Origin: an uncultured virus (IMG/VR IMGVR_UViG_3300035208_003016)
Taxonomy: Duplodnaviria > Heunggongvirae > Uroviricota > Caudoviricetes
IMG/VR virus record: IMGVR_UViG_3300035208_003016
Reading direction: 5' to 3' (one strand)
DNA length: 64,000 bases
The position numbers and the translations under genes were made by a program. Each line of letters begins with the position of its first letter. The stretch's first letter is position 1. Shown piece by piece: positions 6,250 through 59,225 of this stretch. A model generated the notes under the pieces. That model was not told where the DNA came from. It ran no database searches and saw nothing but the letters and a program-made list of their open reading frames with translations.

Positions 6250-6909
6250 TTATAAAATACTATTTAGTCGATCTAGACCATTTATAAACATTGGTTTACA
6301 TGTATTTTTACATGAATGACAATGTTCTCCAGGTGTTCTGTTACGACTTTTTGTTACCACTTTAAGATAACCTCTATTCGTTATAGTATAAGCTATATCG
6401 TTGTTTTTTATAAGGTAGAAAGAATTTGATTGTACATTGAAAATCAGACAATCGTTGGTTTTATTTTTAAGGATATTATAAATATAGTTACATTGTGAGT
6501 AAAAGGCAAGTTCTTTCTGCATTTCTTGCAAAGATCTGAAACAAAAGTGAACATTTATATTTTTATTCTCTAAAATACCTCCAATATTACATTGAATACG
6601 ACTTTTATAAACGACGGTGTCGTAAATATTAGTTAATTTATTAGTTTCTAGAAACTTGTTTATATTAATAGCACAGGTAAGACAAGTATTTTTATAACTT
6701 TCACGATCTGCTTTATACACGTATCTTATACCTGTATAAGCAGTTGATGAAAAGTATTCAGTAAAAGACTTTAAAAAGTTATTAGAATGATTTTTAAGTA
6801 ACTTGGTAAATAATATATCTATATATTTAATATAATTATCGTTTTCTAGATAATAATAACATTTATATAATCTATTATATAACGTCTTACTAAGTACTTT
6901 GTCTGGCAA
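6250..6909 (-). CDS. hypothetical protein, possibly degenerate PD-(D/E)XK nuclease-like
   Basis: C-terminal PGEHCHSCKNTC Cys cluster resembling Cas4/RecB-like tails; catalytic motifs not evident. Confidence 0.3.
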   Translation of the reverse strand: MPDKVLSKTLYNRLYKCYYYLENDNYIKYIDILFTKLLKNHSNNFLKSFTEYFSSTAYTGIRYVYKADRESYKNTCLTCAININKFLETNKLTNIYDTVVYKSRIQCNIGGILENKNINVHFCFRSLQEMQKELAFYSQCNYIYNILKNKTNDCLIFNVQSNSFYLIKNNDIAYTITNRGYLKVVTKSRNRTPGEHCHSCKNTCKPMFINGLDRLNSIL

Positions 6910-7293
6910 CTTTCATTCTCTTTCTTCTTTTAATTTCTAATTGAATAACTTTAAGTGATAGTTTTTTATCTTGAACTAAATTTAAAAGTTTAATTCTTGT
7001 ATTTATTCCATCATATCTACGTTCATCAAATATTAGTCCTAGAGTTAACGGAACTATACTTTCTAGGTATAATTTCATTTGTTTGTCTAATTTAGATATA
7101 TTTTCATCAAGAAGTTTAGATTCTAAAGTATCGTTAATATGTACATAATCGCATCTAAGATTTAACATTTTACAAACTCTTTATGTCCACAATCTGGACA
7201 TTTTGATTTTTTATTTTTGAAAGGATTACTTCTTCCAGTAACTTTTAATGTAAAATTACACTTATTACATTTATATTCAATTTGTTTTTCCAT

Positions 7294-7841
7294 TTAATTC
7301 TCGTAATGTCTATCTTTTATATAGTTAATGTTATTTGGAAGAGTTTTAAGTTTTTCTATTACATCATCTAGACTATATGGTTTGAACTGGTTAGTATCAA
7401 CACCCACATCGAATGATTGTCCTTGTGATGGTAATGTATTATGGCTATGTCCGTATAACATAGGTGCATTAAAATGGCTACGATTCCATGTGCGCATAGC
7501 ATAATGGCATAAAGTGATATGCATATTATTTATTTTAATTTCAGACATTGTACTTACTGATGTAAATATATGATATTTTCTTGGTTTAATTCTTGAAATA
7601 TCGTGGTTCCCCAACAGAACGTGTATGTACTTATGGTTTAACTGATATAAGAATGGTTCTGGATCAGTCCAACTAAAATCACCAAGATGATATACTGTAT
7701 CTTGTTTAGATATACAACTGTTCCAATTTTTAATTAAAGTATCATTCATTTGTTCAACTGTATCAAATGGACGATTACAGTATTTAATTATATTTGTATG
7801 GTTAAAATAACCTAATGAGTATCAGCAGAGAACCAAATCAT
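7294..7841 (-). pseudogene. calcineurin-like metallophosphoesterase interrupted at motif I (stop codon plus frameshift)
   Basis: ATG at 7841 after GGAG encodes MIWFSADTH then TAG; FNHTNIIKYCNRPF continues in another frame into the ORF with HLGDF, GNHD, CHY and GHSH motifs. Confidence 0.7.
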
Positions 7842-7880
7842 TTTGATTCTCCTTTGATACTCTTTATTTTCTTTTCCATG

Positions 7881-12423: not shown

Positions 12424-12502
12424 TGGCTGACTCCCTGGGACTTGAACCCAGAACCTTTTGATTAACAATCAAATGCTTACTGCCAAATTGAGCTAGGAGT
12501 CA
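12424..12502 (-). tRNA. tRNA-Asn(GTT)
   Basis: Cloverleaf: TGACTCC/GGAGTCA acceptor, anticodon arm TTTGA-TTGTTAA-TCAAA, T arm CTGGG-TTCAAGT-CCCAG, encoded GCCA 3' end. Confidence 0.95.
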
Positions 12503-14145: not shown

Positions 14146-15162
14146 ATGTCTATAAATTTACGTAGTGATGTTAATTTTATTACTGATGCTTTTAAGCAAG
14201 AAATGAATGAGATGCGTAGCTCTGAACGTGGAGCTTATGCTAGAACTCAAAATATCGCATGGCCGTCCGAAGCGGGATGTTCGCTTGGTAAGATCAGTGT
14301 AGGTGAATGTACCAGAAAAATGTATTATCGTATCTCTGGTGTAGCTCCTACAGAACCAATGAGTATTACTGGTAAAAATGTTTGTGATGCTGGTAATCTT
14401 TATGAAGACTATTTGATTAATAAGTTTAAAAAATATGGAATGTATAAAGATAGTCAGATTAAACTTGATTTTTTGATTCCAGATAGTAAACATAAAGTCC
14501 AGGTAAACGGTCGTATGGATTTATTAATAGAACATAATAAACAACGATCTGTTATTGAAATAAAATCTGTAAGTGAATTTAAAGCTGCTAAAATTATGAA
14601 CAGTGAGATACCACTTCCTTCATCATCTAATCTTATGCAAGCAATGCTTTATAAATACTATACAACCTCTACAGAGGCTGGTAAAGCTCTTAATGTAGAT
14701 AATGTATATCTTATGTATGTTAATCGTTCTATGGGATCTACGTTTTATTATAAAGTATGTATAGATGATAGCGGCTATGCAATACTTACATCTTATGATT
14801 TAGCTGGTCGTGAACTTGGAACTGTTAATCTTAAAGATGTTAAATCATTTGAAGATCTAGAACGTACTCCAGGTGTAAGTGAAAGTGATGAAGCTAGACT
14901 AGCTGAACTTAAAATTAATATCAAAGATATTTTTGATAAGTTTGATAAAATATATGATTATGCTAGAAGTAATACTTTACCTAAATGTGATTACAATATG
15001 ATTTATACTCAAGCGCAAGCTGAATATGAACATAATATTGGACGACTATCTAAAATGAAACTTAATAAAGTTAAAAAAGGTGAAGTAGTAGGCGATACTA
15101 AATGTCAGTATTGTGATTTTAGAACTAAATGTATGCAAGATAATGGAATAAGTTTTAAATAA
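14146..15162 (+). CDS. Cas4-like / PD-(D/E)XK exonuclease
   Basis: PSEAG...CTRKMYY, GRMD...IEIKS, QAMLY and C-terminal CQYCDFRTKC (4-Cys Fe-S pattern). Confidence 0.8.
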   Translation: MSINLRSDVNFITDAFKQEMNEMRSSERGAYARTQNIAWPSEAGCSLGKISVGECTRKMYYRISGVAPTEPMSITGKNVCDAGNLYEDYLINKFKKYGMYKDSQIKLDFLIPDSKHKVQVNGRMDLLIEHNKQRSVIEIKSVSEFKAAKIMNSEIPLPSSSNLMQAMLYKYYTTSTEAGKALNVDNVYLMYVNRSMGSTFYYKVCIDDSGYAILTSYDLAGRELGTVNLKDVKSFEDLERTPGVSESDEARLAELKINIKDIFDKFDKIYDYARSNTLPKCDYNMIYTQAQAEYEHNIGRLSKMKLNKVKKGEVVGDTKCQYCDFRTKCMQDNGISFK

Positions 15163-17516: not shown

Positions 17517-17846
17517 TTAACAATAATAATCGTGATCTATCCATTCACAGGTTACTTGTTTATCTAGAAACTTAGAAATACTTTCTTCTACGTCTTTTTT
17601 AAATTGTCCCATAGTTTCATCATCTTTCATATATTGTGGATTTCTACCAAGAAATGTTTGCGCTGTATTTAATTCAAAATCTGTATGATAATGAGGACAA
17701 TCTTCAATTTCATCAAGATCGTAAGTACTATCTAAATTATATTTATCTTTACATATTTTTTTAAATTCATCATAATCTATTCGATATCCATATATCATGT
17801 AACTAGATGAACTACTATTTGATACAAAACCGTTTCTAATTTTCAT
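17517..17846 (-). CDS. GFVSNSSSSS-motif family protein
   Basis: N-terminus MKIRNGFVSNSSSSSY. Confidence 0.8.
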   Translation of the reverse strand: MKIRNGFVSNSSSSSYMIYGYRIDYDEFKKICKDKYNLDSTYDLDEIEDCPHYHTDFELNTAQTFLGRNPQYMKDDETMGQFKKDVEESISKFLDKQVTCEWIDHDYYC

Positions 17847-18197
17847 TTAACATTCTCCATCATCTATAATAAAACTATCTTTAGAAACCATTTCTTTAGT
17901 AAGTCTACAGCCATAAAGTCCAGCATATGGTTTATCATAGTCTTCACTTCCAGCACTAAACTTTTTTATTACATATCCTTGTTTTAGTAATTTAATAGCT
18001 TTTTTATAATCTTTACGATTGTTAAATTCTTCATCATTTAACCAATCATAATATTCTCTAAATTCAGCTTCGGTTCTTATAAATGTTATATCTTTTTTTG
18101 GAATAGTCATTATAATATTTAGATCTTCATCTTCTTTTTGTACTATCATAAAGCTGCTAGATGAACTATTACTTACGAATCCTGCTCTTATTTTCAT
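17847..18197 (-). CDS. GFVSNSSSSS-motif family protein
   Basis: N-terminus MKIRAGFVSNSSSSSF. Confidence 0.8.
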   Translation of the reverse strand: MKIRAGFVSNSSSSSFMIVQKEDEDLNIIMTIPKKDITFIRTEAEFREYYDWLNDEEFNNRKDYKKAIKLLKQGYVIKKFSAGSEDYDKPYAGLYGCRLTKEMVSKDSFIIDDGEC

Positions 18198-18206
18198 ACT
18201 TACTCC

Positions 18207-18623
18207 TTAATAATTATCATTACTTATATATTGTATATATGTTCTTAATTGTTTTGGATGTATATTATATTTAGCTAACTTTTCTTTAATTTGGTTATCA
18301 TCTAGTTCATCAAGTTCTACCACTACACCATCTAGTCCATCATTTTCATTTGAAATATCTATTCCAATGATAATTTCTCCAGCTTCTTCACCATCAAAAT
18401 AACTTCTAATTGTTTCAATTTCTAAACCATCTTTAGATAATTTACTATATAATCGATCTTGAACAAAAGCATCTTTATCTGTAGGTTTGTTTAAATTATA
18501 ACAATCTTCATCAGAAGTATCTATATTAAATAATTTAATACATTCATCTGTATTAACTTTTGTTCCTCGTATAACAAAACTGGAACTACTAGAATTACTA
18601 ACAAATCCATTTCTAATTTTCAT
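18207..18623 (-). CDS. GFVSNSSSSS-motif family protein
   Basis: N-terminus MKIRNGFVSNSSSSSF. Confidence 0.8.
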   Translation of the reverse strand: MKIRNGFVSNSSSSSFVIRGTKVNTDECIKLFNIDTSDEDCYNLNKPTDKDAFVQDRLYSKLSKDGLEIETIRSYFDGEEAGEIIIGIDISNENDGLDGVVVELDELDDNQIKEKLAKYNIHPKQLRTYIQYISNDNY

Positions 18624-18989
18624 TTAATAACCTCCTTCACCTTCAATTACGGTAATATTACTATTTGATAAATCTTTAATACCTCGATCAAGTAAAAATT
18701 GTTCAATTGGATCTTCATAGTTATCACTACTCATATTTAAAATTATAATATTACCATGAGTTTTTAAGTAATTATTAAGTTTAATAAATTCTTCTTTTTG
18801 GTTGTCATCATCATAATATCTATCTTTTATGAAATCCCAAAGTTCATCTTCAGATGTGATTGTTTGTTCTAGATATTTAGATAAATCTGCTTCTATTTCT
18901 ACTTTAACTTTTAATTTATTTTGATCGATAGCTGCTATAATAAAACTAGATGATGAACTATTTGATACAAATCCTGTTCTTAATTTCAT
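18624..18989 (-). CDS. GFVSNSSSSS-motif family protein
   Basis: N-terminus MKLRTGFVSNSSSSSF. Confidence 0.8.
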   Translation of the reverse strand: MKLRTGFVSNSSSSSFIIAAIDQNKLKVKVEIEADLSKYLEQTITSEDELWDFIKDRYYDDDNQKEEFIKLNNYLKTHGNIIILNMSSDNYEDPIEQFLLDRGIKDLSNSNITVIEGEGGY

Positions 18990-19291
18990 GAATAATGTTC
19001 TCCTGCATATACTTTTGCTTTATCTGTTAGATTAAATTCTTTTTGAAGTTCTTTTTCGTTTTCTAATATTGTTGATATATCTATACATCCATAATCATAT
19101 TCTGATACATAAGTGTATTTACCTATTCCAAATTTTTCATTGTTTGTATAATTACTTAAAACAACATAATCTGAATTTAAACAGTCGTTATTAATTTTTT
19201 CAACTAATTCTTCTGTTTCATCGCATTCTATTCCAACAATAATAAAACTAGATGAGCTAGAGTTACTTACAAATCCGCTACGTATCTTCAT
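18986..19291 (-). CDS. GFVSNSSSSS-motif family protein
   Basis: N-terminus MKIRSGFVSNSSSSSF. Confidence 0.8.
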   Translation of the reverse strand: MKIRSGFVSNSSSSSFIIVGIECDETEELVEKINNDCLNSDYVVLSNYTNNEKFGIGKYTYVSEYDYGCIDISTILENEKELQKEFNLTDKAKVYAGEHYS

Positions 19292-20180: not shown

Positions 20181-20640
20181 TATCATTACCACCTTGTATA
20201 TATGATTTTTCATTAAATATAAAATTATTTAAAGTTTCTTTATCTTTGAATATAGATAAATCTCCAATACTTTGATGATCAATATAACCATCGATTATTT
20301 TTGTTCCATCATCATCTGAATGTAATATTATACATTTACACTTAGTTTTTTCTTTTATAAGATCTGATAACATTTTTACAAGATCGTGTCTTTTAGCATA
20401 TAAAGCTTGCATGTATGACCACATTATTTTATCTGTCCAAGCATGATATGTAGTGTTTTCCCATCCAAATTCATTATGTCCAAAATTAGAGTCAATAGTT
20501 ATAGTTCTTCCAGAACAATCTGGATAATAAAAATTGGTTTGTATATCATTTCGCAAATTAATAGTTTTATTATATTCTTTAGCTATAACTACAAAGTTGC
20601 TAGATGAGCTGTTACTCACAAATCCATTACGTACTTTCAT
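20173..20640 (-). CDS. GFVSNSSSS-motif family protein
   Basis: N-terminus MKVRNGFVSNSSSSNF; C-terminal GYIDHQS...GNDNE. Confidence 0.8.
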   Translation of the reverse strand: MKVRNGFVSNSSSSNFVVIAKEYNKTINLRNDIQTNFYYPDCSGRTITIDSNFGHNEFGWENTTYHAWTDKIMWSYMQALYAKRHDLVKMLSDLIKEKTKCKCIILHSDDDGTKIIDGYIDHQSIGDLSIFKDKETLNNFIFNEKSYIQGGNDNE

Positions 20641-20643
20641 GTT

Positions 20644-21057
20644 TTACTCCACTATAAATAATTCGAAAGAACTAAGTGCTTCTCCAACTTTAAATCTTTT
20701 ACCAATACACCAAATATGTAAAAGTTTACTTTTTTTAAGACAATCTATGTTCCAACTATATACTGGTCTACTTGTTGGTATACTTCCAGACCATTGGCCA
20801 TATCCACCAATTCCATTAAGATGTAATACATCACTACATCCACTAAGACGTTTAATTGGTAAATTATCTTTTACTGCAATAAAATCCATTGTTGTATAAC
20901 CACTATCATGAACGCGATTAGTTGGAATTATAATTAAACTATCAAAAATTCCTATATCTTCATTCCATTCACGTCTAGATATTTCTAGAAGTTCTTTTTT
21001 ACTCATCAAGTTTATACTTTTTACTTCTACTTTTGGTTCGCTTCGTAAATTGATCAT
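20644..21057 (-). CDS. hypothetical protein with N-terminal INLR motif
   Basis: 137-aa ORF starting MINLRSE, inserted within the paralogue array. Confidence 0.6.
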   Translation of the reverse strand: MINLRSEPKVEVKSINLMSKKELLEISRREWNEDIGIFDSLIIIPTNRVHDSGYTTMDFIAVKDNLPIKRLSGCSDVLHLNGIGGYGQWSGSIPTSRPVYSWNIDCLKKSKLLHIWCIGKRFKVGEALSSFELFIVE

Positions 21058-21658: not shown

Positions 21659-21661
21659 TAA

Positions 21662-21943
21662 TTATCTCCATTCAACTTTATCTTGATCAATTCCAATTAA
21701 AGATAAATATTTATACATATCAAAATTATCCATAAACACATAACCTTCAACAAAATCATCTGTTACTGTAATATCCCATTGAAAATTAAGATCATCATCG
21801 TAACAACCACATTTATATCCAGCTTGTTTATCTATCTCAATATGATTCTGTATCTTTATAATTTGAGAGTTTGTTATATTAGAACGACCTATAATAAAGC
21901 TACTACTGCTACTATTACTAACGAAACCTATACGAGTCTTCAT
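21662..21943 (-). CDS. GFVSNSSSSS-motif family protein
   Basis: N-terminus MKTRIGFVSNSSSSSF. Confidence 0.8.
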   Translation of the reverse strand: MKTRIGFVSNSSSSSFIIGRSNITNSQIIKIQNHIEIDKQAGYKCGCYDDDLNFQWDITVTDDFVEGYVFMDNFDMYKYLSLIGIDQDKVEWR

Positions 21944-25012: not shown

Positions 25013-25343
25013 AAGTTGATCCTTAAGTTAGGTTAAATACATCCACCACAACATCCATATCGTATATTATCGTTTACCAGTTCTAATGCTCTTTGTTTGA
25101 GATTTTCAGGAAAGTTACTTGGATAATTACTTATATTCCAAGATCCTTCATGAGAATTATAATCAGAATCTATATATCCGCCAGAAGATAAACTATATGC
25201 TTCAAAAGTATAAATAATATTATTTATTCTTAATACTAATGTTCCAGAACATAAGTTTGGATAACTCCCATCATAACTAATTACATCATCTGGTAATTGT
25301 TCTATTGGTTCTGCACGTTCTCTTAAATTAATCATAAACTTCC

Positions 25344-28079: not shown

Positions 28080-28310
28080 TAACCTATCCTTAAATTTATA
28101 TTTCTTGCTTTATAATCTTTTGGTATGTCGAGCTTAATTGATGGAATACTATCTGAAAAAACGTCTGTATCTATGTCTAGATCTAATTTAAGGCAAATTT
28201 CATTCTTTTTAATTTCATTTTTATTTGAAGATATTCTTGCTGAGATAGATCCACTATATCTTTTAGTACTTTTACTTAAGTATAAATATTTAGTAACTTT
28301 TGTGTTCATT

Positions 28311-28571
28311 TTAATCCCTTAAATTAATATTTTTTCTTATTTTTAATTCTTTTGGTGTTAATTTAGTGATTTTAGTTTCTATTAATCTAGTTATATTTTT
28401 ATCTTTAATTTCTTTATTTGATGAAGTTATTAATAATCGACCATGTCCATTACAATTAGAACAAGTTATATCATATTCCCATTCATCTTCATCTTCATGT
28501 GTCGTTTTACCATAACCATGACAATTTTCACATATTATTATACCTTCATGATATAAATCATTAACTTTCAT
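28311..28571 (-). CDS. small DnaJ-type zinc-finger protein with C-terminal INLRD
   Basis: CENCHGYG and CSNCNGHG. Confidence 0.6.
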   Translation of the reverse strand: MKVNDLYHEGIIICENCHGYGKTTHEDEDEWEYDITCSNCNGHGRLLITSSNKEIKDKNITRLIETKITKLTPKELKIRKNINLRD

Positions 28572-28817
28572 AATCTCTTCTCAAGTTTATAGTTTTATAC
28601 TTTATTGGTGTTCTTTTTGGTGTTCTTTTTTTGATTGGTTCAGTGTATATTTCACAATCTGAAGCAAGTATATATCCACATCTTGATCTTTCAGGAATAA
28701 TAGCTTTATAGTTTAAACCATCTACAAAATTATAATCTTTATCTTCTACTTCAATTGTTTGATTAATATATGGATAATACCAATAATCTTCACTTGGAGA
28801 ATCAATTATTTTAACTT

Positions 28818-31459: not shown

Positions 31460-32403
31460 AACTCTCTAGCGTTATCTGAATAAATTATATCTAGTGATGT
31501 CTTAATATTAGTGAGTGTAGCATTACCAGAAGCATCTATATATTCACATTTATATATTTTATCTGTATATATACTTTTATAATTACATAAAAGTACAAAA
31601 TTAAAATCACTTATCATTATATGACCATTACGTCGTTCTGTATATATTTGTTTGTCTTTTCTTAAAGATAAAATTAACTTATGTCCTACAAGTTCATAAA
31701 ATACTCCATGACTAAGTTCATCACCATATGATGTTATTAGATAATTTTCTCTTACATTCCAGATCATAGGTCACTCACATTTAAAAGTTTTTCATGTACT
31801 AGTTTTTCTCTAAGACGATCTACAAGTTCACTAGTTATTGTATAGTTTTTATATATACTAAAACCTTTATCTATAAGAGAAGAAATAATTGTTTCTAGAT
31901 CTATACATACATTATGTGTTATTTCTTTAAGATTATTATTTTTAGATCCAGATAGATTAGATATATAACAACCTTTTGTTAAAAACCAATAAACGTATAA
32001 AATATATATAGATTTATCGATTCTTAAATTAATTTCTCCAGTTCCATCTAGTAAGACTGATTTAATAACTGAAGATCTTATATGACTTGGATTGTATTCT
32101 ACCAGAGTTTTTAATACTTTACCCTTATGTTTAAAAATAATTGGTAATATGCTATTATCTAATTGTAATATACGATATCGATTATCTATTGATTGTTTAC
32201 ATAATGCTTCTAGATTGTTATAAAAATTACTTTGCTCTGGAAGTCTAGAACTTTTCCATCTTAGTAGTTCGTATGTGTTTTTATATGTATCTATTATATG
32301 AAATGATCTTTTAAACATACTTCTAATAGGACGTGTTACTTGTAAGTCATCAATTGATATATTACAAGCTTTAATGTTATCAATAATCATTTCGTAATTC
32401 ACC

Positions 32404-32610: not shown

Positions 32611-32803
32611 TAATCTCTCCGTAAATTTATTGTTTTATAATTATTTTCATTTATAAGTATACAATCACATTTTGGTATACAAGCTATAAGATGTTTAAGT
32701 TCATAATAACATTCATGAGTATTAATATTTTTTATTGGTGTAACATCATTTATATTATTTTTATACCAACTATCTTTATTAGAACATTTAATTATTTTAA
32801 CTT

Positions 32804-35131: not shown

Positions 35132-35361
35132 TAATCTTTCCTTAAATTTATTGTATGTTTACGATTTTCTTTTCTTTCAAATTCATATATTTTTTCAGTT
35201 TTATTATATATAAGTTTTGGCTTAAATTCAGATATAGATTTTTCAAGTCCTCTACGAAACTTACATACATGAGAATTATATTTTATATTATCTTTATATT
35301 GATAACAAAATTTTTGTGATATACAAGTTACACAATCTTTATTCATAATCCATTATAATAT

Positions 35362-37120: not shown

Positions 37121-37552
37121 TCATACGTCTCCTTTTATATAACTATCAAATTCAGAATTAGTCATATTTAATTTATCTTTAGTATCTTTAAGTTCTTTAA
37201 GTAATTTAATAAAATCAGAAAATTTAAGAGCACAATAATCTTCTGAATGATTACGAGAGAATATAAGTAATGGTGGATGTTTACGATTATCACTTTCAGC
37301 TTGTTTAAGAGCTGACCATATATTTAATTTCTCTTGATTTTTATTTTCTATACTAAATGGTATACATTCTCTAGCTTTTTCTGAAAGTTTAATGTCCTCG
37401 CCTGGAACACCACCTGGTGTGGGGTAAACACAATCTTCAGATAAGTTAAATGTTGTACGTATAAGTTCAGCTATTCGTTGAGATAAACGTCTTCCCTTCG
37501 ATTTTGATGCAGCAATGCTTATACGCTTCTTTTTCTTTATAATTTCAGTCAC
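37121..37552 (-). CDS. phage Holliday-junction-resolvase-like nuclease
   Basis: SKSKGRRL, G.D, IENKNQEKLNIWSALKQAE, P.LIF.RN. Confidence 0.65.
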   Translation of the reverse strand: MTEIIKKKKRISIAASKSKGRRLSQRIAELIRTTFNLSEDCVYPTPGGVPGEDIKLSEKARECIPFSIENKNQEKLNIWSALKQAESDNRKHPPLLIFSRNHSEDYCALKFSDFIKLLKELKDTKDKLNMTNSEFDSYIKGDV

Positions 37553-38551
37553 GTAAGTTAATTCCTTTTGATTTATTTTCGTTTATAAATTTTTCACATA
37601 TCCAGATGACATCTTTTTCTTTTCTATAACCTAAAAGATATCTTAAATGATCTTTCTGTCCTTGAGATGTATATTTAGGAGATGTTCGTATAATGCAATA
37701 ACCTCGTTGAGATGATAAATTCTTAAATCCAGCACATAAAAAATCATAAGATCTTAATAATGTATTAATAGAACTATAATTTTTAAGACCAAGTATAATA
37801 TGATAATGTCTATGTGAAGTTAAAACAACATCTATATCATTAATACTTGAATCCTGTATAAGTATATTACATTGAGATTGAATACAATCAAAATTTTCAC
37901 CATCAATGTCTAGAGGACATATTTTAGAATTATATATATCAAATATAAGACCATATGCATAATAGTCTATATTATTCAAATCTATAATACTATTAAATGG
38001 TTCTAAATATATTTCTGATGAGTGTTCATATTTAAGTGAATGAGTATATATAACTTTTTTATATGAATCTAGATATCTATCAGAATGGTATAAGGTCGTG
38101 ATATAATTTGAATAATTTATTTGTTGTATCATTACTTAAAACCTGATGTTCTATAATAGGTTTGTAAAATAATCCAGATGAATTAATTATAACTTCTTCT
38201 TTAATATCACAATCTAATATTGGTCGAAATATATCTATATCATGGCCAAATAATTCTATTTCATGTGATGATATACGCTTAAGACCTTTTAATCTTAAAA
38301 CTTCAGATCTAGATATTATTCTAATTGATCTTATAAAAGTATTATTCATTAATGTTGATTGTAATATATTAAGTTTTCGACCCATATAATAGAAACCATC
38401 TTTAGATTCTGTTATTATATAAAGCTTCCATGATGGTTCTTGAATGTCTGATCTTAAATTAATTTTAGTATGTTTAATTATATCTGTACAATATTCAAAT
38501 GAAAAATTATAGATATAAGCTAATTTTAATAATCTTTTAAGATATATAATA

Positions 38552-40383: not shown

Positions 40384-40956
40384 TTCGTCCCCAATTTAGA
40401 AGTTATATATTTATCTATATAAGTATCAAATCCAAATAATTTAGTAAGATTACTCTTTTTAAGCATACAAGAAATATCTTCTTCAGATATATTATAACAG
40501 TTAGCTACATGAAGTTTAGTTCTACAATGAGTCATAAGACTATAAGGATAACTTCTTGTTGGTTGTCTTATTCTAGAACAACATGATTGTTCATCTGTTG
40601 GATACCAACGCTGTGCATTGTCAAATTGACCATCTGGATGGATCATTCGTTCTTTAAGCTTTATGTATTCTATTGTAGCTTTAACTATGTTTAGATCTAA
40701 GTTATCTGTTCTGAGATTAATCATAGGTTATAATAATCCTTAAATGATTCGATAGATTCATCTAATGTCTTTATACATTTATTTATATTTTCTTCATTTT
40801 CAGAACTTAATTTAAACTTAATATGTTGTTTTTTAAATATAATTCCAGTTTCTTCATAATCTAAATCAAGTTTAATATCATAATCAAAAGCTAATTCTTT
40901 TAAAAATGGTATAAACTTTGATGATTTTGGTATTATACAACTATATTTATAACTTA

Positions 40957-48258: not shown

Positions 48259-48456
48259 TTATCCTACATAATTTGGAACATAATCTGGTTGTAAATGCAA
48301 GTATCGTTCAGACTTATCTTCGGTGTGTGTTACCATTCCAAGTTGAGCTTCTAACTGACTGATAGCATCACACTGATCTCCAATAAATCCATCACATTCA
48401 GTAGTCATCTTACCAGTTTTTTTATTAATTTTTACAATTACTTTTTGCTGATTCAT
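48259..48456 (-). CDS. DUF2997-family protein
   Basis: I.KKTG....E.DGF.G..C.....LE..LG; next to DUF1257 and a Ycf46-like ATPase. Confidence 0.7.
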   Translation of the reverse strand: MNQQKVIVKINKKTGKMTTECDGFIGDQCDAISQLEAQLGMVTHTEDKSERYLHLQPDYVPNYVG

Positions 48457-48466
48457 AATATTCTCC

Positions 48467-48877
48467 TTAACCTACGTAACGTGTTAGTTCAAAACATATT
48501 TCATTATTGTTTTCTGTTCTAGTTCCTTCTTCAAGACTAAAGGATAGAGCAGCTAGACGTTCGATTACTTCTGCCTCTTTAGCGTGACTTGTAACCTCTT
48601 GAGACATGATCTCTGTATTATAACTCTTACCATTCTTATGAAGGCCGTAAAAGTCTCCTATAGCTTTATACGTACCATCAGACTGTTGTTTAAAACCAAC
48701 ACAACTATTGTTATCTGTTATAAGAATATCAACTTCTTCATGTACGCTATAATTACCTTTGGTTCTAAGAGTTTTTCCTTCTTCAGCTTCTAAGTATGAA
48801 AAGCCAAGACTGGTAAGACTTTTTAAAAGATATTCTTTATTGTTAAGCTCAAGCTTCACTTCTGATTTATGTGACAT
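48467..48877 (-). CDS. DUF1257/Ycf35-family protein
   Basis: MSH.S.V...L...L..LG, VGF....DGTY..IGD.Y. Confidence 0.7.
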   Translation of the reverse strand: MSHKSEVKLELNNKEYLLKSLTSLGFSYLEAEEGKTLRTKGNYSVHEEVDILITDNNSCVGFKQQSDGTYKAIGDFYGLHKNGKSYNTEIMSQEVTSHAKEAEVIERLAALSFSLEEGTRTENNNEICFELTRYVG

Positions 48878-48904
48878 TTTTGTAACTCCTTGATTTAATT
48901 AGAT

Positions 48905-50650
48905 TTAAATAACTATATCATCTGTTCTAAGATTGACTTTAGTTTTCTTTTGTTTAGTTTCTTTTGGTTTAATAATTCCTGAAGATACGTTATTAGCATT
49001 ATCTTCTGACCATTTTCTCATTGATGAGATTTTTTCTTTACCAACTTTTGTAATAGGTTTAATTTTTCTTAGTGTTTCTAAGATATCATCAGTTGTGATG
49101 TCATCTTTACCACCTATTTCAATTTCCTTTCCTTTTCCAAGAGCAAATTTGTTTCTAAGAGCATCTTTGATACTACTTTCTATTTCTGCTCCAGTAATAA
49201 CAAATTTAGTTCCATCTAGATCTTCATATTCATAACTTGCTAGTTTATTTATGTCAAACTTTGATGGATCTCTTTCTCGTTTAGAGATATGAATTTTAAA
49301 GATTTCTTTACGTTCTTCACTATTTGGAACATCAGAAAACCAAATTTCATCAAATCGACCTTTACGTAAAAGTGCTGGATGATTTGCTCTTATTGTACTA
49401 ATATCATTAGCTGTAGCTATAAGTAACATTCCAGGATGTTCTTCATTAAGCCAATTTAAGAATGTTCCAATGACTCTATTGGTTGTTCCGCCGTCTGTTT
49501 TGTCTGAACTTCCTGCTCCAGATAGTGCTTTATCAATTTCATCTATAACGACAACTCCACCAACAGCATCTGCAAGTGTAAGACCTTGTCTTGCTCTTTT
49601 CTCGCTTTCACCCATCAAAGATCCAAATACTTTACCAATGTCAAATTTAATAAGACTTGTCTTGAGTTCATGAGCAATTGCTTTAGCAATTAAAGTTTTA
49701 CCACTACCTTCAACTCCAATAAGCATAATTGCTTTTGGTGGTTCAGTTTTAAATTTGATTGCATTATCAGCATTTTGTATAACTGTTTTTTGTGTAGATA
49801 TCCAGTTTTTAATATTATTAAATCCACCGACTTGATTTAAATCATCTGTACTATTCCAGAATTCTAGAATATCAGATTTATTAATAATTGATTTCTTTTC
49901 TTCTATTATACTAGCAACATCAATCTTTTTTAATGTTACCATGCTGTATTGTAAAGTATTAATAATCTGATCTTCAGTAAGACCACAACATGCACGAGCT
50001 ATATCATCTTCAACGTATTCTGGATTAATTTTATCAGAAGCATTATATTTTTTATTATGATCAGCTATTTGGTTATTTGTATCTTTAAGAAGTAGTAAAA
50101 TCTCATCATAAGTGGGATAATTAAGTTTAATAAATACAGTATCTTTCTCAATTTCAGTTGGAACTGTGATACCGTATCCAGTTATAACTATTGTTGAATT
50201 AGCTGTAGAAGCTAGATAGACAAGATCTTTTAGCTTTCTAAGAATAACTGGATCTTTAAAGAATTTATCAAGATCTCTTAATACGTAGATATTTCGTTTT
50301 TCATTATTTACATCAGTAACAGTTTTTCCACGACAATCTTCTTCTATAACTGCAAATGCATATGCTGGATTCTGTCGAGTATCAAACTTTCCACCACTTC
50401 CAAGACGTGCTTGTGCACTTGGAAATTTATGTGGAAAGAATCTGTTTACATTGATTTTATTTCGATCAATTTCATGCAATCCTTGACCAATTGACCAAAA
50501 GTTTACTACATCGTCTGGATATTTCTTTAATATCTCACGAATAACTCTTGTTTCTTCTGGAGTATCTATAAAGATTAATCCAGCACTACAATCGATACGA
50601 TCAAAAACAGGCTTAAATGTTTCAATTACAGTAAGTTTCTTTTTGCTCAT
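48905..50650 (-). CDS. Ycf46-like AAA+ ATPase
   Basis: EETRV, VGG...IK.W, GVEGSGKT, GSLMGESE, IDEIDK, ATAN, LLRKGRFDEIWF, TGAEIE. Confidence 0.85.
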   Translation of the reverse strand: MSKKKLTVIETFKPVFDRIDCSAGLIFIDTPEETRVIREILKKYPDDVVNFWSIGQGLHEIDRNKINVNRFFPHKFPSAQARLGSGGKFDTRQNPAYAFAVIEEDCRGKTVTDVNNEKRNIYVLRDLDKFFKDPVILRKLKDLVYLASTANSTIVITGYGITVPTEIEKDTVFIKLNYPTYDEILLLLKDTNNQIADHNKKYNASDKINPEYVEDDIARACCGLTEDQIINTLQYSMVTLKKIDVASIIEEKKSIINKSDILEFWNSTDDLNQVGGFNNIKNWISTQKTVIQNADNAIKFKTEPPKAIMLIGVEGSGKTLIAKAIAHELKTSLIKFDIGKVFGSLMGESEKRARQGLTLADAVGGVVVIDEIDKALSGAGSSDKTDGGTTNRVIGTFLNWLNEEHPGMLLIATANDISTIRANHPALLRKGRFDEIWFSDVPNSEERKEIFKIHISKRERDPSKFDINKLASYEYEDLDGTKFVITGAEIESSIKDALRNKFALGKGKEIEIGGKDDITTDDILETLRKIKPITKVGKEKISSMRKWSEDNANNVSSGIIKPKETKQKKTKVNLRTDDIVI

Positions 50651-53341: not shown

Positions 53342-55447
53342 TCAGCAATCTGTCTTGCTGTCCAACCTTTTTGTCTTCCTGATAGAATCATTTGATTGAT
53401 TCTTTTTGGAAACTTTGACTTTGACATTACTTTTCTCCTTTGAGAGTGTTTGAAAAACTTGTCTTGGTATTTCTGAAGATAATTTAGATATAACATCATG
53501 ACCATTTTTAGAATCAGATGTTATTTGAGCTTTTAAAGATTTTGTATCAATCTTAATATTATACATATTAAGATAATAATCTAAGTTTTTATCATAAATA
53601 TTTGAAATATCATTTTCATTTAATTTATTAAACACAATGATTTCGTCACTTATATTTACAACATCTTCTCCGATTAATTCTTTTAACTTATCTTTAGAAA
53701 GTTCATTACTATCTTTTTTATCTTCGTTTATACTAAAACCCATTGTTTTTGTTTGTTTATTATATAGACTTTCTAGGTCTTTTTCTTCTAATGTTACTGA
53801 AAAAATTATTATTGTATTATTTAACTTAGCTTCACGTTCAGCACTATCTGTCATTTTACCAGTTCTACAACAATCAACTATGTAACTTTTTATAGTATCA
53901 TGTGCATGATTTATTCCTCTGAAATAAACGACACTTAAAGGATTTGTTCTTACTGCTTTTATAAGTCCTCCAGATTTGGCATAACCTACATATCCAGGAG
54001 GTGCACCTTTAAGTTCTGTAAGTGAAAATTCTTGTTTAAATCCACTCATATCATAATCAATAAAATAATTTTTAGATCCAAATAGATATTGTGAAAGTAA
54101 TTGTGCTGAAGTTTTTTTACCACAACCACTTGGACCGATATATAAAAGTATTGATATTGGACGTTCACGATCATATTTAACATTTTTAAATATATTAACA
54201 ATATTTGATAATTTATCTATTTGTTCATTCTGTCCAAATATATTAGATTTGAGTTCAGTAGAAATAAAATTATAGTCTAGACTATTTTCAATTTGATCAT
54301 AATCAACACCTGTTACTGAAGATATTGCTAAGTTAATATATTTATCTGTTAAAACTCGTTTACCTGCTATTGTAACTATACTTTCAAGTTCTTTTCTATT
54401 TTTATCTAAACTTAACAATTTATTATCTGATTGTAATATATTAACATCAGTTTGTTTAATTTCACGTTCATACATGATTGAACAAGCGATGTCTAGAATA
54501 TCTAATGATTTATCTGGATTCTTTCTTGTTCCTAAAAATCTACTTCCAGTTTCTACAAGTTTCTTACATATTTCATTTGGGATTATACATTTATGATGAT
54601 CTTCATATACACTTTTTGTACCGATTATCATCTTAATTGTTTCTTCAATATTTGGCTCATTAACTGGAATTACTGTAAATCTACGTTCTAGAGCACTATC
54701 CTCTGTTATAATAGAATGATATTCATTTATTGTTGTACTTCCTATAAAACGTATCTTTTCAGTAAGATAAGGTTTAAGAATGTCATTCATCTTATGACCA
54801 AGAAGTTGATGTACTTCATCTATAAATAGAATTACTTTATCATATTCAGAAGCTTTTTCAAGTATGTTTATAATAACTGTTATTGGATCGTCTTTATGTT
54901 TTGATAAGATATAAGGAACGTCCATATTGAGAATATAACAACCTTTAAGTTGTCTAGGAACTGTACGTTCAATAAGTCTAGCATTTACGGCGTTGACAAG
55001 TGCAGTTTTTCCCACGCCTGCTGGTCCGATAAGTATACAACCTCGTTTATTCTTTTTACTTAAAGTTAAAAGAATGCTTTCTATTTCTTTATCTCGACCT
55101 GTAATAATATTACCTTGTTGATATTTCATTATCTTACAAGGAGAAAGTTCTTTAAAATTTAAACTAAGTGGTGAATATGATAATGAATCAGTTTCTATAA
55201 TTTTTATAGATGTAGCTATAAGATTTTTAATGTCATTTATAGATGTATAAATACCATCAGGGAGTTGAGAAGACAGATTATCTATAAATATATTTTCAGT
55301 TATTTTATCTTTTATGTCATAACTTTTGACGATATTTAAAGCTTGAGATGTAAAAATATCTGTAATATTTTTAGAAACAAATAACTTAAATAAGTTTTCA
55401 ACTGATGGAGATAATTTAATCATATAAGTCCCTGTGTAAGATACCAT
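53342..55447 (-). CDS. ClpA/ClpC-like two-domain AAA+ unfoldase
   Basis: GRDKEI, GPAGVGKT, LFIDEVH, IGSTT..EY, D.ALERRF, PDKSLDILD, IFGQ, GPSGCGK, GAPPGYVGY; second Walker B degenerate. Confidence 0.88.
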   Translation of the reverse strand: MVSYTGTYMIKLSPSVENLFKLFVSKNITDIFTSQALNIVKSYDIKDKITENIFIDNLSSQLPDGIYTSINDIKNLIATSIKIIETDSLSYSPLSLNFKELSPCKIMKYQQGNIITGRDKEIESILLTLSKKNKRGCILIGPAGVGKTALVNAVNARLIERTVPRQLKGCYILNMDVPYILSKHKDDPITVIINILEKASEYDKVILFIDEVHQLLGHKMNDILKPYLTEKIRFIGSTTINEYHSIITEDSALERRFTVIPVNEPNIEETIKMIIGTKSVYEDHHKCIIPNEICKKLVETGSRFLGTRKNPDKSLDILDIACSIMYEREIKQTDVNILQSDNKLLSLDKNRKELESIVTIAGKRVLTDKYINLAISSVTGVDYDQIENSLDYNFISTELKSNIFGQNEQIDKLSNIVNIFKNVKYDRERPISILLYIGPSGCGKKTSAQLLSQYLFGSKNYFIDYDMSGFKQEFSLTELKGAPPGYVGYAKSGGLIKAVRTNPLSVVYFRGINHAHDTIKSYIVDCCRTGKMTDSAEREAKLNNTIIIFSVTLEEKDLESLYNKQTKTMGFSINEDKKDSNELSKDKLKELIGEDVVNISDEIIVFNKLNENDISNIYDKNLDYYLNMYNIKIDTKSLKAQITSDSKNGHDVISKLSSEIPRQVFQTLSKEKSNVKVKVSKKNQSNDSIRKTKRLDSKTDC

Positions 55448-56327: not shown

Positions 56328-56640
56328 TTGGATACTCCAATTGTATGTAAAGTTCTATATAATGTTTAATTTTTTTCAGATCTTCAATACCATTTTTATC
56401 CATATATCTACATATATATTTAATTACATTACCTTGAAAGAAATTAAGCTTATTTTTAATTATAAATTCAACTGGTTGTATTACAAAATTTTTATAATGA
56501 TTTCCACCAATTTGAGTGCTAAGAGGATTATTATCACGACTAAAAATAGCTTTAGGTTTATCTTTAAAAGTATTTACTTTGTGAGTTCCAGGAGGATCTG
56601 GAACGTATTTAGTTTCAACAAATTTATCTTGAGTTTCCAT
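56299..56640 (-). CDS. DUF3310-family (T7 gp1.7-like) protein
   Basis: QIGGNHYK...IQPVEFI...F.QGNVIKY.CRY..KNGIEDLKK..HY. Confidence 0.8.
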   Translation of the reverse strand: METQDKFVETKYVPDPPGTHKVNTFKDKPKAIFSRDNNPLSTQIGGNHYKNFVIQPVEFIIKNKLNFFQGNVIKYICRYMDKNGIEDLKKIKHYIELYIQLEYPNEVQSEQTM

Positions 56641-57173
56641 TAGAAGTACCTATTTCTAGTATCAAAAGTAACTGTTACGCATTGTTTATATTTATTTTTT
56701 TGAATATTTTTATTTTTGATGAATATATTAAAATATCTTAAATGTTGTTCAACTTTTCTTATACATATACATAATGACTCTTTTGTAAATAATATATGAT
56801 TAATGTTTTGAAGATTTAAATTTAAATTAATATTACCTAAACAATATGTATGTCCTCTATAATTTAAATTAGTAGTAAAAATAGTAGCATTATCTTCAAT
56901 TATTATATATATATTTGTATTATGTTTTTGACAGATTGGAGTAAATATTTCTATAAGTTGTTTTTCAAGTTGTTCATTTTGAAAAGTAATATCATTTTCA
57001 ATTTCTTTTTTCTTTTTACAATACGATGTTCTCTTCTTGAATAGTTCTATTAAGTTTTCTATCGGTGAGTTCAGATCTTTTCTCAAGTTCATTAGATTTC
57101 TCCTTAAAGATATTATTCCAGTGTTCTTCAGTTACAAACATTCCTATTGGAAAATTTCCACGAGATTTACTAC

Positions 57174-57588: not shown

Positions 57589-58056
57589 TTAATAAGAAGA
57601 GTTAAAAGCTTTATAAAATGTATTAATAATTTTCTTTTCTAAGAGTTCTTCAACAGATGTAAAATAACAATTTACCATTGTAGATAAGAATGGATGTTGT
57701 TTATGCATATCATCAGTTGTAATCATAAGTATTGGTAATTTCGCTTCATATGCAAATGCAATCTCTAGAATGGTCCCTACGTTGACCCTGTCAGAACCAA
57801 AGTTATCCATATTAACGATAAAAAGATTACTTATTCTTATAGCATTATAATCTTTTATAAATATAGCTGATGGTGGTATATTTGAAGTTAATCCAGAGAT
57901 GTTATCTTCTCCATTAAGCGGATTAAGAAAACATACATCTCCATAATTTTTACCACTATTTTTCCAATTACTATAATGATCAATTATTTGAGATCTCCAT
58001 GCACGACAAAGATCTATTTCTTTTTCCGAGATAATTCCAGCAAGATAAATTTTCAT
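57589..58056 (-). CDS. nucleoside 2-deoxyribosyltransferase-like protein
   Basis: KIYLAG, WR, LNP, D...I, GT..EIAFA. Confidence 0.8.
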   Translation of the reverse strand: MKIYLAGIISEKEIDLCRAWRSQIIDHYSNWKNSGKNYGDVCFLNPLNGEDNISGLTSNIPPSAIFIKDYNAIRISNLFIVNMDNFGSDRVNVGTILEIAFAYEAKLPILMITTDDMHKQHPFLSTMVNCYFTSVEELLEKKIINTFYKAFNSSY

Positions 58057-58297
58057 AAGTTAGTTTCTATATGTTCATGACATTGTTTACTTGCATTAAG
58101 TAATGACCATTTTAGAAGGTATTCTACAGTTATTTTACTTAGATCTAAGTTACCATCTTCTTTTTTTGCAATGTCTATTGGTGTTTTACTAGATCTAGAA
58201 GCATTTTGTAAATCTTCTATAAGTTCAACTAGATTATCAAACATACGCTTATGAAGATCTAGATGACTCTCTTTCCAAAGACCTTGTATAATTGACA

Positions 58298-58564
58298 TTA
58301 TAACTCCAAATCTTTGTAACTAATTATTTTAACATCTCTTGCTTTAGCAACATTTATTTTAGTCATTCCAGGATCATTTCCAACTATAAGATAATCTGTA
58401 TAACTTCTAACTGTAGAATTATTTTTTACATAATATGTTTTATTTAAATATATTTCAAATTCTATTCTTGTATATCCTGGAATAGTTCCTGTTACACAAA
58501 TATTTTTATATTTAAGATCTATTTTTTGTTTTGGTTCTTGATCTCTACGTAAGTTTATACCCAT
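58298..58564 (-). CDS. stand-alone BRCT domain protein (DNA ligase C-terminal type)
   Basis: ICVTGTIPGYTR...VRSYTDYLIVG..PG.TK...A....V.II. Confidence 0.75.
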   Translation of the reverse strand: MGINLRRDQEPKQKIDLKYKNICVTGTIPGYTRIEFEIYLNKTYYVKNNSTVRSYTDYLIVGNDPGMTKINVAKARDVKIISYKDLEL

Positions 58565-58974
58565 TAATTACCACAGCATGATTTAGGTTGTTTAAGTAAT
58601 TCTTCAGTTTTAGTTTTATTAGTTTTAAAATTAACTATTAACTTATTTTTAAGTTCTTTAGCTATCTGACAATATTCAAGTTCAAGTCTTAGTAAATTTT
58701 TATTTTCTTCAGAAAAGTCTATTGGACAAGATATATTTAATATATAATCTTGATCTTTAAGTAAAACTATTTCTTCAAATATATTTACGTTTATATTGTT
58801 AATTCTACAGAATGAAATTATATGACCGCCGACACATAGACCGAGTGATGATAATAATAACTCTAGAGGTGTATGAAAATATAAATTACTTGATGTCTTT
58901 CCTCGTATAGGAACTTTTCCTACTGAAGTAATATTAATAATGTTATTTTTATCTCTCAGATTAACTGTTATCAT
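58564..58974 (-). CDS. OsmC-like protein
   Basis: TPLELLLSSLGLC...C.IA..L. Confidence 0.6.
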   Translation of the reverse strand: MITVNLRDKNNIINITSVGKVPIRGKTSSNLYFHTPLELLLSSLGLCVGGHIISFCRINNINVNIFEEIVLLKDQDYILNISCPIDFSEENKNLLRLELEYCQIAKELKNKLIVNFKTNKTKTEELLKQPKSCCGN

Positions 58975-59225
58975 TGTTCTATTTGTCCACTGCCATTTAA
59001 TTATAAATTATGACTTTTATCGATACTTGGATATAATTCTAACTTTCCGTAATAATTAATACTTAATATATTTCCAGCATTATATTCATAAGTTCCATCT
59101 TTATTAACTATTGATAAAACTACACGATTATTATCTCTAAATAGTCTTAAGTATATTGGTGGTTTATTTTCTAATTGTAATTCAACTATTTCTTTTTCAT
59201 CATAAGCTCGTAGATTAAGCATATT

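What the first reader, a model, noticed from the sequence alone, without database searches (positions are those of the whole stretch)
6890..59222. A shared [IVLM]NLRx(D) peptide tag on about 19 unrelated proteins, mostly at their termini
Seen at N-termini: 7168 MLNLRCD, 14146 MSINLRSD (Cas4-like), 21057 MINLRSE, 25335 MINLRER, 40724 MINLRTD, 57092 MNLRKD, 58564 MGINLRRD (BRCT), 58974 MITVNLRD (OsmC-like), 59222 MLNLRAYD. Seen at C-termini of ORFs ending at 28079 INLRIG, 28311 INLRD, 28561 INLRRDYES, 32610 INLRRD, 35131 INLRKD, 37545 INLRD, 48905 VNLRTDDIVI (AAA ATPase). Seen internally in ORFs 20173, 31764 and 38080. Codons vary synonymously (AAT TTA CGT; AAT CTT AGA; AAT TTA CGA; AAT CTC AGA; AAC TTA CGT), so conservation is at the protein level rather than a DNA repeat, and the tag is appended outside recognisable domains. 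Inference: an undescribed phage short linear motif acting as a sorting or docking signal, e.g. for capsid or compartment import, a hub protein, or the encoded Clp/Ycf46 AAA+ or Ubl machinery. Caveat: some C-terminal copies overlap the next gene's SD (TTA AGG), but that cannot explain the N-terminal copies.
Basis: partly seen in the sequence, partly recalled or inferred. Interest (0 to 1): 0.85.

Follow-up and report, generated by a model that had tools for sequence, protein, structure and literature searches.

The report
Shared end-tag on phage proteins
About sixteen unrelated proteins of this uncultured giant phage carry the same four-residue peptide (hydrophobic-Asn-Leu-Arg) at one of their ends, and sister phages keep it, so it looks like an address label read by one still unidentified partner.

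Summary
In 115 called proteins of the window, [IVLM]NLR occurs 19 times against 1.3 expected, and 16 copies lie within 8 residues of an end against 0.15 expected (0 of 2000 shuffles reach either). NLR is the most end-enriched tripeptide in this contig and in three sister phages of 213-230 kb.

It is a peptide, not a DNA repeat. Leu uses six codons and Arg five, with almost no non-synonymous near-misses. Orthologues keep it. In three families (Cas4-like nuclease, vWA protein, Cdc48-like ATPase) close relatives carry it and distant ones lack it.

In 5 of the 7 C-terminal copies in the window, the Arg codon is also the next gene's Shine-Dalgarno sequence, and three non-coding look-alikes exist.

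The reader of the tag is unknown. My leading guess, about 0.3, is the phage's own ClpC/A-like unfoldase with ClpP. This scan has noted comparable lineage-specific end-tags on other large phages (unchecked).

The parts
7154..7165 (-). N-terminal tag MLNLRCD of ORF 6890-7168 (92 aa, no family)
   Evidence: No orthologue in the 3 sister phages.
14152..14163 (+). N-terminal tag MSINLRSD of the Cas4-like PD-(D/E)XK nuclease, ORF 14146-15162
   Evidence: The tag is kept in 3 of 3 orthologues. 30 of 56 homologues carry it and 21 distant ones start directly at the NFI helix. In the AF2 model, residues 1-10 have pLDDT 59 against 93 overall.
21043..21054 (-). N-terminal tag MINLRSE of ORF 20644-21057 (137 aa)
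25321..25332 (-). N-terminal tag MINLRER of ORF 25033-25335 (100 aa)
28088..28099 (-). C-terminal tag INLRIG of ORF 28079-28309. Its AGG also serves as the SD of the next gene.
   Evidence: The G062 orthologue ends in TINLRMS.
28317..28328 (-). C-terminal tag INLRD of ORF 28311-28571 (zinc-finger-like). Its AGG also serves as the SD.
28579..28590 (-). C-terminal tag INLRRDYES of ORF 28561-28821
   Evidence: Paralogue of ORF 32610.
32619..32630 (-). C-terminal tag INLRRD of ORF 32610-32807. The codons TTA CGG AGA place the SD (GGAGA) two bases further on.
35140..35151 (-). C-terminal tag INLRKD of ORF 35131-35346
   Evidence: The same 21-mer recurs at contig position 135,137-135,157, outside the window.
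37551..37562 (-). C-terminal tag INLRD of ORF 37545-38132
   Evidence: Orthologues in G061 and G062 lack it.
40710..40721 (-). N-terminal tag MINLRTD of ORF 40380-40724
48926..48937 (-). Tag VNLRTDDIVI in the C-terminal tail of the Cdc48/Ycf46-like AAA ATPase (ORF 48905-50650). It lies 48 nt from the next start, so it is not an SD.
   Evidence: Tail motif in 63 of 95 clade homologues (relaxed pattern) and in 0 of 25 distant ones.
57081..57092 (-). N-terminal tag MNLRKD of ORF 56640-57092
   Evidence: Orthologues carry MNLR or LNLR behind a probably mis-called start.
58547..58558 (-). N-terminal tag MGINLRRD of the BRCT-domain protein, ORF 58298-58564
   Evidence: LNLR in 3 of 3 orthologues.
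59208..59219 (-). N-terminal tag MLNLRAYD of ORF 59001-59222
58954..58965 (-). MITVNLRD of the OsmC-like ORF 58564-58974. Doubtful as a tag.
   Evidence: Orthologues read MIEVHIRD and MIEISIKD.
20551..20562 (-). Internal KTINLRND in ORF 20173-20640. Probably a structural coincidence.
   Evidence: Paralogue alignment.
38452..38463 (-). Internal KINLRSDIQEP in ORF 38080-38673. Status open.
32022..32033 (-). Internal EINLRID in ORF 31764-32414. Not conserved.
   Evidence: 0 of 3 orthologues have it.
25021..25029 (-). Non-coding look-alike AAC TTA AGG, just after the stop of ORF 25033-25335 and at the SD position of ORF 23930-25012
53342..55447 (-). ClpC/A-like double-AAA unfoldase and candidate reader. 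It has a lineage-specific N-terminal region of about 110 aa, no Clp_N domain and no M-domain, and an invariant MGF loop.
   Evidence: ClpP partner at contig 48,822-49,418, outside the window.
48259..48877 (-). DUF2997 and DUF1257-like genes immediately downstream of the AAA ATPase

Best explanation
hydrophobic-Asn-Leu-Arg, usually followed within two residues by Asp or Glu, is a portable peptide tag. It sits on a flexible N-terminal stub (Met plus 0-8 residues) or on a Lys/Arg-rich C-terminal tail. About 16 otherwise unrelated proteins of the early and replication gene block carry it.

Shown: selection acts on the peptide, the tag lies outside the folded domain, and it is gained and lost protein by protein within one clade of uncultured 210-230 kb phages.

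Inferred: all copies are read by one common partner that needs a free, unstructured end. My preferred reader is the phage's own ClpC/A-like unfoldase working with the phage ClpP. The tag would then be a degron or delivery handle that times the removal of early proteins.

The C-terminal copies are dual-coded. TTA-AGG, read as Leu-Arg, is also the UAAGGA Shine-Dalgarno sequence of the next gene, which probably made this tag easy to evolve at gene ends.

The confidence given for this entry (0.4) is for the statement as a whole.
For: Enrichment and end bias:
- Window: 19 copies against 1.27 expected, 16 terminal against 0.15 expected, 0 of 2000 shuffles reach.
- Terminal copies, observed against expected: contig 19 vs 0.35; G062 10 vs 0.42; G064 10 vs 0.42; G061 9 vs 0.37.
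- NLR is the top end-enriched tripeptide in all four genomes, p from 2e-14 to 1e-5.

Selection on the peptide:
- Six Leu codons and five Arg codons are used, roughly in line with genome codon usage.
- Only 2 four-of-five matches that break the N-L-R core occur at protein ends.

The tag is an add-on to the domain:
- Cas4-like family: 30 of 56 homologues carry M-x(0-3)-[ILM]N[LIF]R, and 21 distant ones start directly at the conserved NFI helix. AF2 gives pLDDT 59 for residues 1-10 against 93 overall.
- vWA family: 9 of 10 homologues start MN[LM]R, and the most distant one does not.
- AAA tail: 63 of 95 clade homologues carry the motif, 0 of 25 distant ones do.

Orthologues keep the tag: Cas4-like 3 of 3, vWA 3 of 3, BRCT 3 of 3, AAA 2 of 3.

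Candidate reader is present:
- The ClpC/A-like protein has an invariant MGF loop where ClpC1 has LGF, and an N-terminal region found only in this clade.
- ClpP is present in all four genomes, with catalytic Ser and His aligned to a solved ClpP.
- That AAA+ unfoldases accept degrons at either terminus is recalled (Flynn et al. 2003), not read here.
Against: - No reader has been identified by any test.
- The link between the tags and the ClpC-like and ClpP genes rests on a single clade, so it is not independent evidence.
- 5 of 7 C-terminal copies in the window sit exactly at the next gene's SD.
- Three non-coding look-alikes occur at SD positions.
- The excess of Asn codons before in-frame TTAAGG is modest: 6 of 14 against 4 of 28.
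- Tagged proteins include conserved enzymes (nuclease, vWA protein, AAA ATPase) that one would not obviously expect to be destroyed.
- Sister phages also tag a few proteins in the structural and late block.
- The AAA tail varies (INLK, LNMR) without matching changes in neighbouring tags.
Confidence: 0.4

Rival explanations
1. The tag is a docking motif for a hub that does not degrade proteins. Candidates are the N-terminal region of the Cdc48-like AAA ATPase, by analogy with p97 cofactor motifs; a replication or recombination factor; or a host protein. The tag would recruit accessory proteins rather than destroy them.
For: - Several tagged proteins act on DNA or look like cofactors: the Cas4-like nuclease, the BRCT protein, the vWA protein and small zinc-finger proteins.
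- The AAA ATPase is Cdc48/VAT-like.
- Its tail is the most widely conserved copy of the tag.
- That p97 binds many cofactors through short motifs is recalled, not read here.
Against: - No sliding clamp or SSB was recognised by Pfam or PHROGs, either in the window or among the G062 proteins sent to Pfam (150 of its 210 called proteins of 100 aa or more; 71 of these also went to PHROGs).
- The family B DNA polymerase carries no tag.
- A strict preference for free ends is less expected of a general docking motif.
Confidence: 0.3
2. The motif is a by-product of the translation-initiation region. An AT-rich stretch followed by UUAAGGA, placed 7-8 nt before start codons, happens to read Asn-Leu-Arg in the fixed frame that overlapping stop/start junctions impose.
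For: - 5 of 7 C-terminal copies in the window, and 6 of 8 in the contig, have the Arg codon 7-8 nt before the next start.
- AGG makes up 4 of 19 tag Arg codons against 67 of 1421 genome-wide.
- Non-coding copies occur at the same position.
- TTAAGG is the common SD context in this phage.
Against: - It cannot explain the N-terminal copies: 9 in the window and 29 across the four genomes.
- It cannot explain the AAA tail, which is 48 nt from the next start.
- It cannot explain copies that use CGT, CGA or CTN codons.
- It cannot explain conservation of the peptide through codon changes in orthologues.
Confidence: 0.08
3. The motif is a processing or packaging signal: either a protease cleavage site, or a capsid-targeting sequence like that of the T4 internal proteins.
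For: - T4 internal proteins are unrelated proteins that share only a short targeting sequence (PMC3012670, passages read).
- The phage encodes a SprT/M48-like metallopeptidase at 26011-26415.
- A few tags in the sister phages lie next to the portal and terminase genes.
Against: - The tag works at either end, and a cut there would remove only 1-10 residues.
- Most tagged genes lie in the early and replication block, not among the head genes.
Confidence: 0.07

Closest known systems
Terminal degrons of Clp AAA+ proteases (ssrA tag; N- and C-terminal ClpX recognition motifs of lambda O and MuA). Recalled: Flynn et al. 2003, not read here.
   Same: A short peptide on an exposed N- or C-terminus of unrelated proteins. 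An unfoldase and ClpP are encoded alongside.
   Different: The sequence differs. The tag is confined to one clade of phages. The phage unfoldase has its own N-terminal region. No degradation has been shown.
Capsid targeting sequence of T4 internal proteins (PMC3012670, passages read)
   Same: Diverse, fast-evolving phage proteins that share only a short conserved address peptide.
   Different: The T4 sequence is N-terminal only, is removed by the prohead protease, and marks packaged proteins (these three points are recalled, not in the passages read). Here the tag occurs at both ends and mostly in the early and replication block.
Docking motifs of Cdc48/p97 cofactors, and HbYX tails of proteasome activators (recalled)
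   Same: A Cdc48-like ATPase whose conserved C-terminal tail shares a motif with other proteins.
   Different: The motif has no aromatic residue, copies also occur at N-termini, and no partner peptidase has been identified.
Clamp-binding peptides (PIP box, bacterial QL[SD]LF, T4 gp45-binding tails) (recalled)
   Same: A terminal short motif on replication and repair proteins.
   Different: The consensus is unrelated. No clamp was recognised in the proteins scanned. The polymerase is untagged.
Lineage-specific end-tags noted earlier in this scan on other large phages (AI notes, unchecked)
   Same: Many unrelated small early proteins share one terminal peptide. One case includes a Cdc48-like ATPase, and in another the tail doubles as a ribosome-binding site.
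   Different: Each lineage uses a different peptide. This is the only one of those notes, as listed, in which the same tag is used at both termini.

Membership tests
AAA+ protease degron | Lies on an exposed, unstructured terminus | tested here: met
   16 of 19 copies lie within 8 residues of an end. Cas4-like residues 1-10 have pLDDT 59. C-terminal copies follow Lys/Arg-rich linkers.
AAA+ protease degron | A cognate unfoldase with a ClpP-docking loop, and a ClpP with catalytic residues, are encoded | tested here: met
   MGF loop invariant in 8 of 8 aligned sequences. ClpP present in 4 of 4 genomes; Ser and His aligned to a solved ClpP for the G062 copy. This shows presence only.
AAA+ protease degron | The tag is necessary and sufficient for degradation | not testable with these tools
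   Needs a stability assay.
T4-type capsid targeting sequence | N-terminal only, on proteins packaged in the head | tested here: not met
   7 C-terminal copies in the window. The tagged genes lie in the replication and early block.
Clamp-binding motif | A clamp gene is present and the polymerase carries the motif | tested here: not met
   No clamp family found or 50 among the proteins searched. The PolB C-terminus VVYMGDL is untagged.
Shine-Dalgarno / initiation-region DNA motif | Fixed distance upstream of a start codon, independent of reading frame and of coding | tested here: inconclusive
   Met for 5 of 7 C-terminal copies, and 3 non-coding copies exist. Not met for the 9 N-terminal copies or for the AAA tail.
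DNA repeat / mobile element | Conserved at the nucleotide level, with variation not confined to synonymous sites | tested here: not met
   Variation falls at wobble positions and at Leu/Arg first positions only. Only one identical 21-mer pair was found.

The most novel reading that the evidence does not exclude
A clade of uncultured 210-230 kb phages runs its own proteome-addressing system. A four-residue tag works at either protein end and is easily born at gene ends, because it overlaps the ribosome-binding site of the next gene. The tag hands accessory and early proteins to a phage-encoded ClpC-like/ClpP machine, or to another phage hub, for timed removal or recruitment. This would be one instance of a wider, undescribed habit of large phages to use lineage-specific end-tags.
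Probability: 0.25. Interest if true: 0.8.

Novelty: new variant of a known kind. Interest (0 to 1): 0.65.

Why it matters
If one partner reads this tag, then a single peptide identifies a whole set of otherwise unannotatable phage proteins as clients of one machine. It would also give a handle to find that machine, by peptide pull-down or by stability assays on tagged reporters.

It would be a phage-encoded counterpart of cellular degron or cofactor-motif systems.

The overlap with the next gene's ribosome-binding site suggests a simple route by which new genes acquire the tag.

My full-text searches found no description of this motif or of proteome-wide end-tags in phages. Subscription journals are not covered by those searches.

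Tried and rejected
- Chance or composition. Rejected by residue shuffles and by the unbiased tripeptide scan.
- Paralogy. Rejected: only one tagged pair is related.
- -1 frameshift slippery site (A AAT TTA). Considered from the sequence and rejected, because most copies use other codons.
- Host-genome feature. The motif is not enriched on the other contigs of the bin. No relative of the polymerase was found in 60 related genomes searched.
- Cultured relatives. There are none close: the best polymerase match is 24% identity. A single-protein scan of IMG/VR found nothing; an alignment-based scan was needed.
- Co-variation between the AAA tail variant and neighbouring tags. None was seen.
- Fold of the ClpC-like N-terminal region. 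The AF2 model was too poor to search with: pLDDT 62, pTM 0.29, from 6 sequences.
- Predicted complex of the ClpC-like N-terminal region (residues 1-118, 8-row alignment) with the AAA tail (residues 540-581, 36 rows). Verdict: no answer. Score 0.00 against a mark of 0.32, and the controls were not run. This is no evidence either way.
- DUF2997/DUF1257 literature. Only listings in cyanobacterial gene clusters were found.
- searched with the whole ClpC-like protein rather than its N-terminal region. It still showed that only five cluster representatives (at 50% identity) matched across that region.
Full report
**What the window is.** The window is bases 62,001-126,000 of a 135,678-bp contig with 26.6% G+C. 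The contig sits in a 2.36-Mb, 194-contig bin whose other contigs have different composition. Its genes are those of a large tailed phage's early and replication block:
- family B DNA polymerase, DnaG-DnaB primase-helicase, RecA, UvrD, Rad52-like protein, a sigma factor;
- a ClpC/A-like double-AAA ATPase;
- a Cdc48/Ycf46-like AAA ATPase followed by DUF1257-like and DUF2997 genes;
- ThiF, radical SAM, TROVE and PurA-like proteins.

The same phage occurs as a 228,384-bp metagenome contig. Cultured phages offer no close relative; the best polymerase match is 24% identity. IMG/VR holds sister genomes of 213-230 kb, two of them with terminal repeats. I fetched three of them whole.

- [IVLM]NLR occurs 19 times against 1.27 expected from within-protein shuffles.
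- 16 copies lie within 8 residues of an end against 0.15 expected.
- None of 2000 shuffles reaches either number.
- Every in-frame NLR is preceded by I, V, L or M.

An unbiased scan of all tripeptides puts NLR first for end-enrichment in this contig (19 terminal, 7 interior, p = 2e-14). It is also first, independently, in each of the three sister genomes (p = 2.5e-7, 1.4e-7 and 1.3e-5). Whole-genome counts of terminal copies against expectation are 19 vs 0.35, 10 vs 0.42, 10 vs 0.42 and 9 vs 0.37. Other contigs of the bin show no enrichment. Only one tagged pair is paralogous.

**Peptide or DNA?** Among the copies, Leu uses TTA, TTG, CTT, CTC, CTA and CTG. Arg uses AGA, AGG, CGT, CGA and CGG, roughly in proportion to genome codon usage. 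Relaxing the pattern to four matches out of five at protein ends adds only two sequences that break the N-L-R core.

Orthologues keep the peptide while the codons change:
- Cas4-like nuclease, 3 of 3;
- vWA protein, 3 of 3;
- BRCT protein, 3 of 3;
- AAA ATPase, 2 of 3;
- the small protein 28079, 1 of 1.

Thirteen of the 23 tagged proteins of the contig have no detectable orthologue in the three sisters, so the tag also rides on lineage-specific small genes.

**The tag is an add-on outside the domain.** Three families show this.
- *Cas4-like nuclease.* 30 of 56 homologues begin M-x(0-3)-[ILM]N[LIF]R before the conserved NFIxxIF helix. Two more read IKLR and three are shorter at the N-terminus. 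The 21 most distant begin directly at the helix. In a confident AF2 model (pLDDT 93.4, pTM 0.91), the first ten residues average pLDDT 59 and the first helix starts at residue 11.
- *vWA (YegL-like) protein.* 9 of 10 homologues start MN[LM]R, followed by a short basic linker and the first strand with the DxSGS motif. The most distant one does not.
- *Cdc48-like ATPase.* A Lys-rich linker followed by [IVLMF]N[LMIVF][RK] lies in the last 30 residues of 63 of 95 clade homologues (22 with strict [IVLM]NLR). It is in 0 of 25 distant homologues, which instead end in RLEL or KLEI.

**The Shine-Dalgarno complication.** For 5 of the 7 C-terminal copies in the window (6 of 8 in the contig), the Arg codon ends 7-8 nt before the next gene's start codon. 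TTA-AGG-A is the UAAGGA core of the ribosome-binding site that this phage uses generally. AGG is over-used in tags: 4 of 19 against 67 of 1421 Arg codons.

Three look-alikes lie in non-coding DNA at that same position, each just after a stop codon. They are at window 25021-25029, at contig 133,822, and one in G061.

Where TTAAGG sits at an SD position, an Asn codon precedes it in 6 of 14 cases read in frame by an upstream gene, against 4 of 28 otherwise. That excess is modest.

So the C-terminal class is dual-coded, and I cannot fully separate peptide selection from ribosome-binding-site selection there. Several things are not explained by a ribosome-binding site: the N-terminal copies, the AAA tail (48 nt from the next start), the copies that use CGN or CTN codons, and the family-level conservation.

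**Copies I would drop.**
- The OsmC-like N-terminus at 58974: orthologues read VHIR and ISIK.
- The internal copy in 20173: it lies in a segment that the 12 paralogues conserve as xxIxLxxD.
- The internal copy in 31764: absent from 3 of 3 orthologues.
- The internal copy in 38080 stays open.

**What reads it?** This is inferred, not shown. A motif that works at either free end, on flexible stubs, is what AAA+ unfoldases recognise (recalled knowledge of ClpX and ClpA degrons). The phage has the matching machinery:
- The 701-residue ATPase is closest to ClpC and ClpA.
- It lacks Clp_N and the M-domain.
- It has an invariant Met-Gly-Phe at the place of the ClpP-docking LGF loop of the best-matching solved chain.
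- Its first ~110 residues matched only five cluster representatives (at 50% identity) out of 1.84 billion proteins.
- A ClpP is present in all four genomes, and the G062 copy aligns its catalytic Ser and His with a solved ClpP.

Against this reading, the co-occurrence rests on a single clade, and tagged proteins include conserved enzymes. The Cdc48-like ATPase, with its own conserved tagged tail, is an alternative hub. No clamp or SSB family was recognised among the proteins scanned.

**Comparison with what is known and novelty.** The nearest known things are Clp degrons, the T4 capsid targeting sequence (PMC3012670, passages read), p97 and proteasome docking motifs, and clamp-binding peptides. 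None matches in sequence, and the capsid-targeting and clamp models fail a defining feature.

My full-text searches found no description of this motif or of such tags. The jumbo-phage survey PMC7824862 (passages read) mentions phage ClpP, ClpS, ClpA and ClpX but, in those passages, no client tags.

Earlier notes of this scan report analogous lineage-specific end-tags in other large phages. These are unchecked AI notes. I treat them as a lead that the phenomenon may be general, not as support.

**Verdict.** This is a real, conserved, protein-level end-tag, partly entangled with ribosome-binding sites at gene ends. Its reader and function are unknown. The best guess is a degradation or delivery handle for the phage Clp machine.

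Noticed in passing
window 17517-22512 and 39916-40383: Twelve paralogous small genes all begin MK[ILVT]R-x-GFVSNSSSSS[FY] and then diverge completely. Only a weak PHROG match of unknown function was found.
   Followed up: partly
window 25021-25029; contig C121 near 133,822; G061 upstream of 202,504-203,157: Tag-like (P)(I)NLR codons lie in frame immediately after a stop codon, at the SD position of the next gene. They could be truncated former tags, readthrough extensions, or plain ribosome-binding sites.
   Followed up: partly
window 35131-35151 and contig C121 135,137-135,157: An identical 21-mer, ATAAATTTAAGGAAAGATTAA, ends two unrelated genes. This hints at occasional DNA-level copying of the tag together with the ribosome-binding site.
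   Followed up: no
window 59226-60200: A short (324 aa) adenylosuccinate-synthetase-like gene lies near a nucleoside deoxyribosyltransferase-like gene (57589-58056). Whether it is a PurZ-type enzyme for a modified base was not tested.
   Followed up: no
window 60202-61695 and 63716-63937; G062 (L083, L085): A TROVE/Ro60-like protein and a cREC_REC domain protein are present. The sister phage adds RtcB and an RNA ligase, which suggests an RNA-repair module.
   Followed up: no
homologues P0011, P0022, P0053-P0057 (AAA) and P0121, P0123 (ClpC-like): Some relatives of both ATPases are about 350 residues longer. Most of the longer AAA relatives carry a LAGLIDADG-type Pfam hit, so these are probably inteins.
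   Followed up: no
window 25844-25853: A run of 10 N, either an assembly gap or masking.
   Followed up: no
window 932-1016 and 12424-12502: tRNA-Thr(TGT) and tRNA-Asn(GTT) genes on the minus strand.
   Followed up: no
AAA ATPase tail, window 48905-48925: Beyond the tag, the extreme C-terminus ([DE]-V/I-[DE]-I/L in the clade; RLEL or KLEI in distant homologues) is conserved across the whole family. It may be a second, older docking element.
   Followed up: partly
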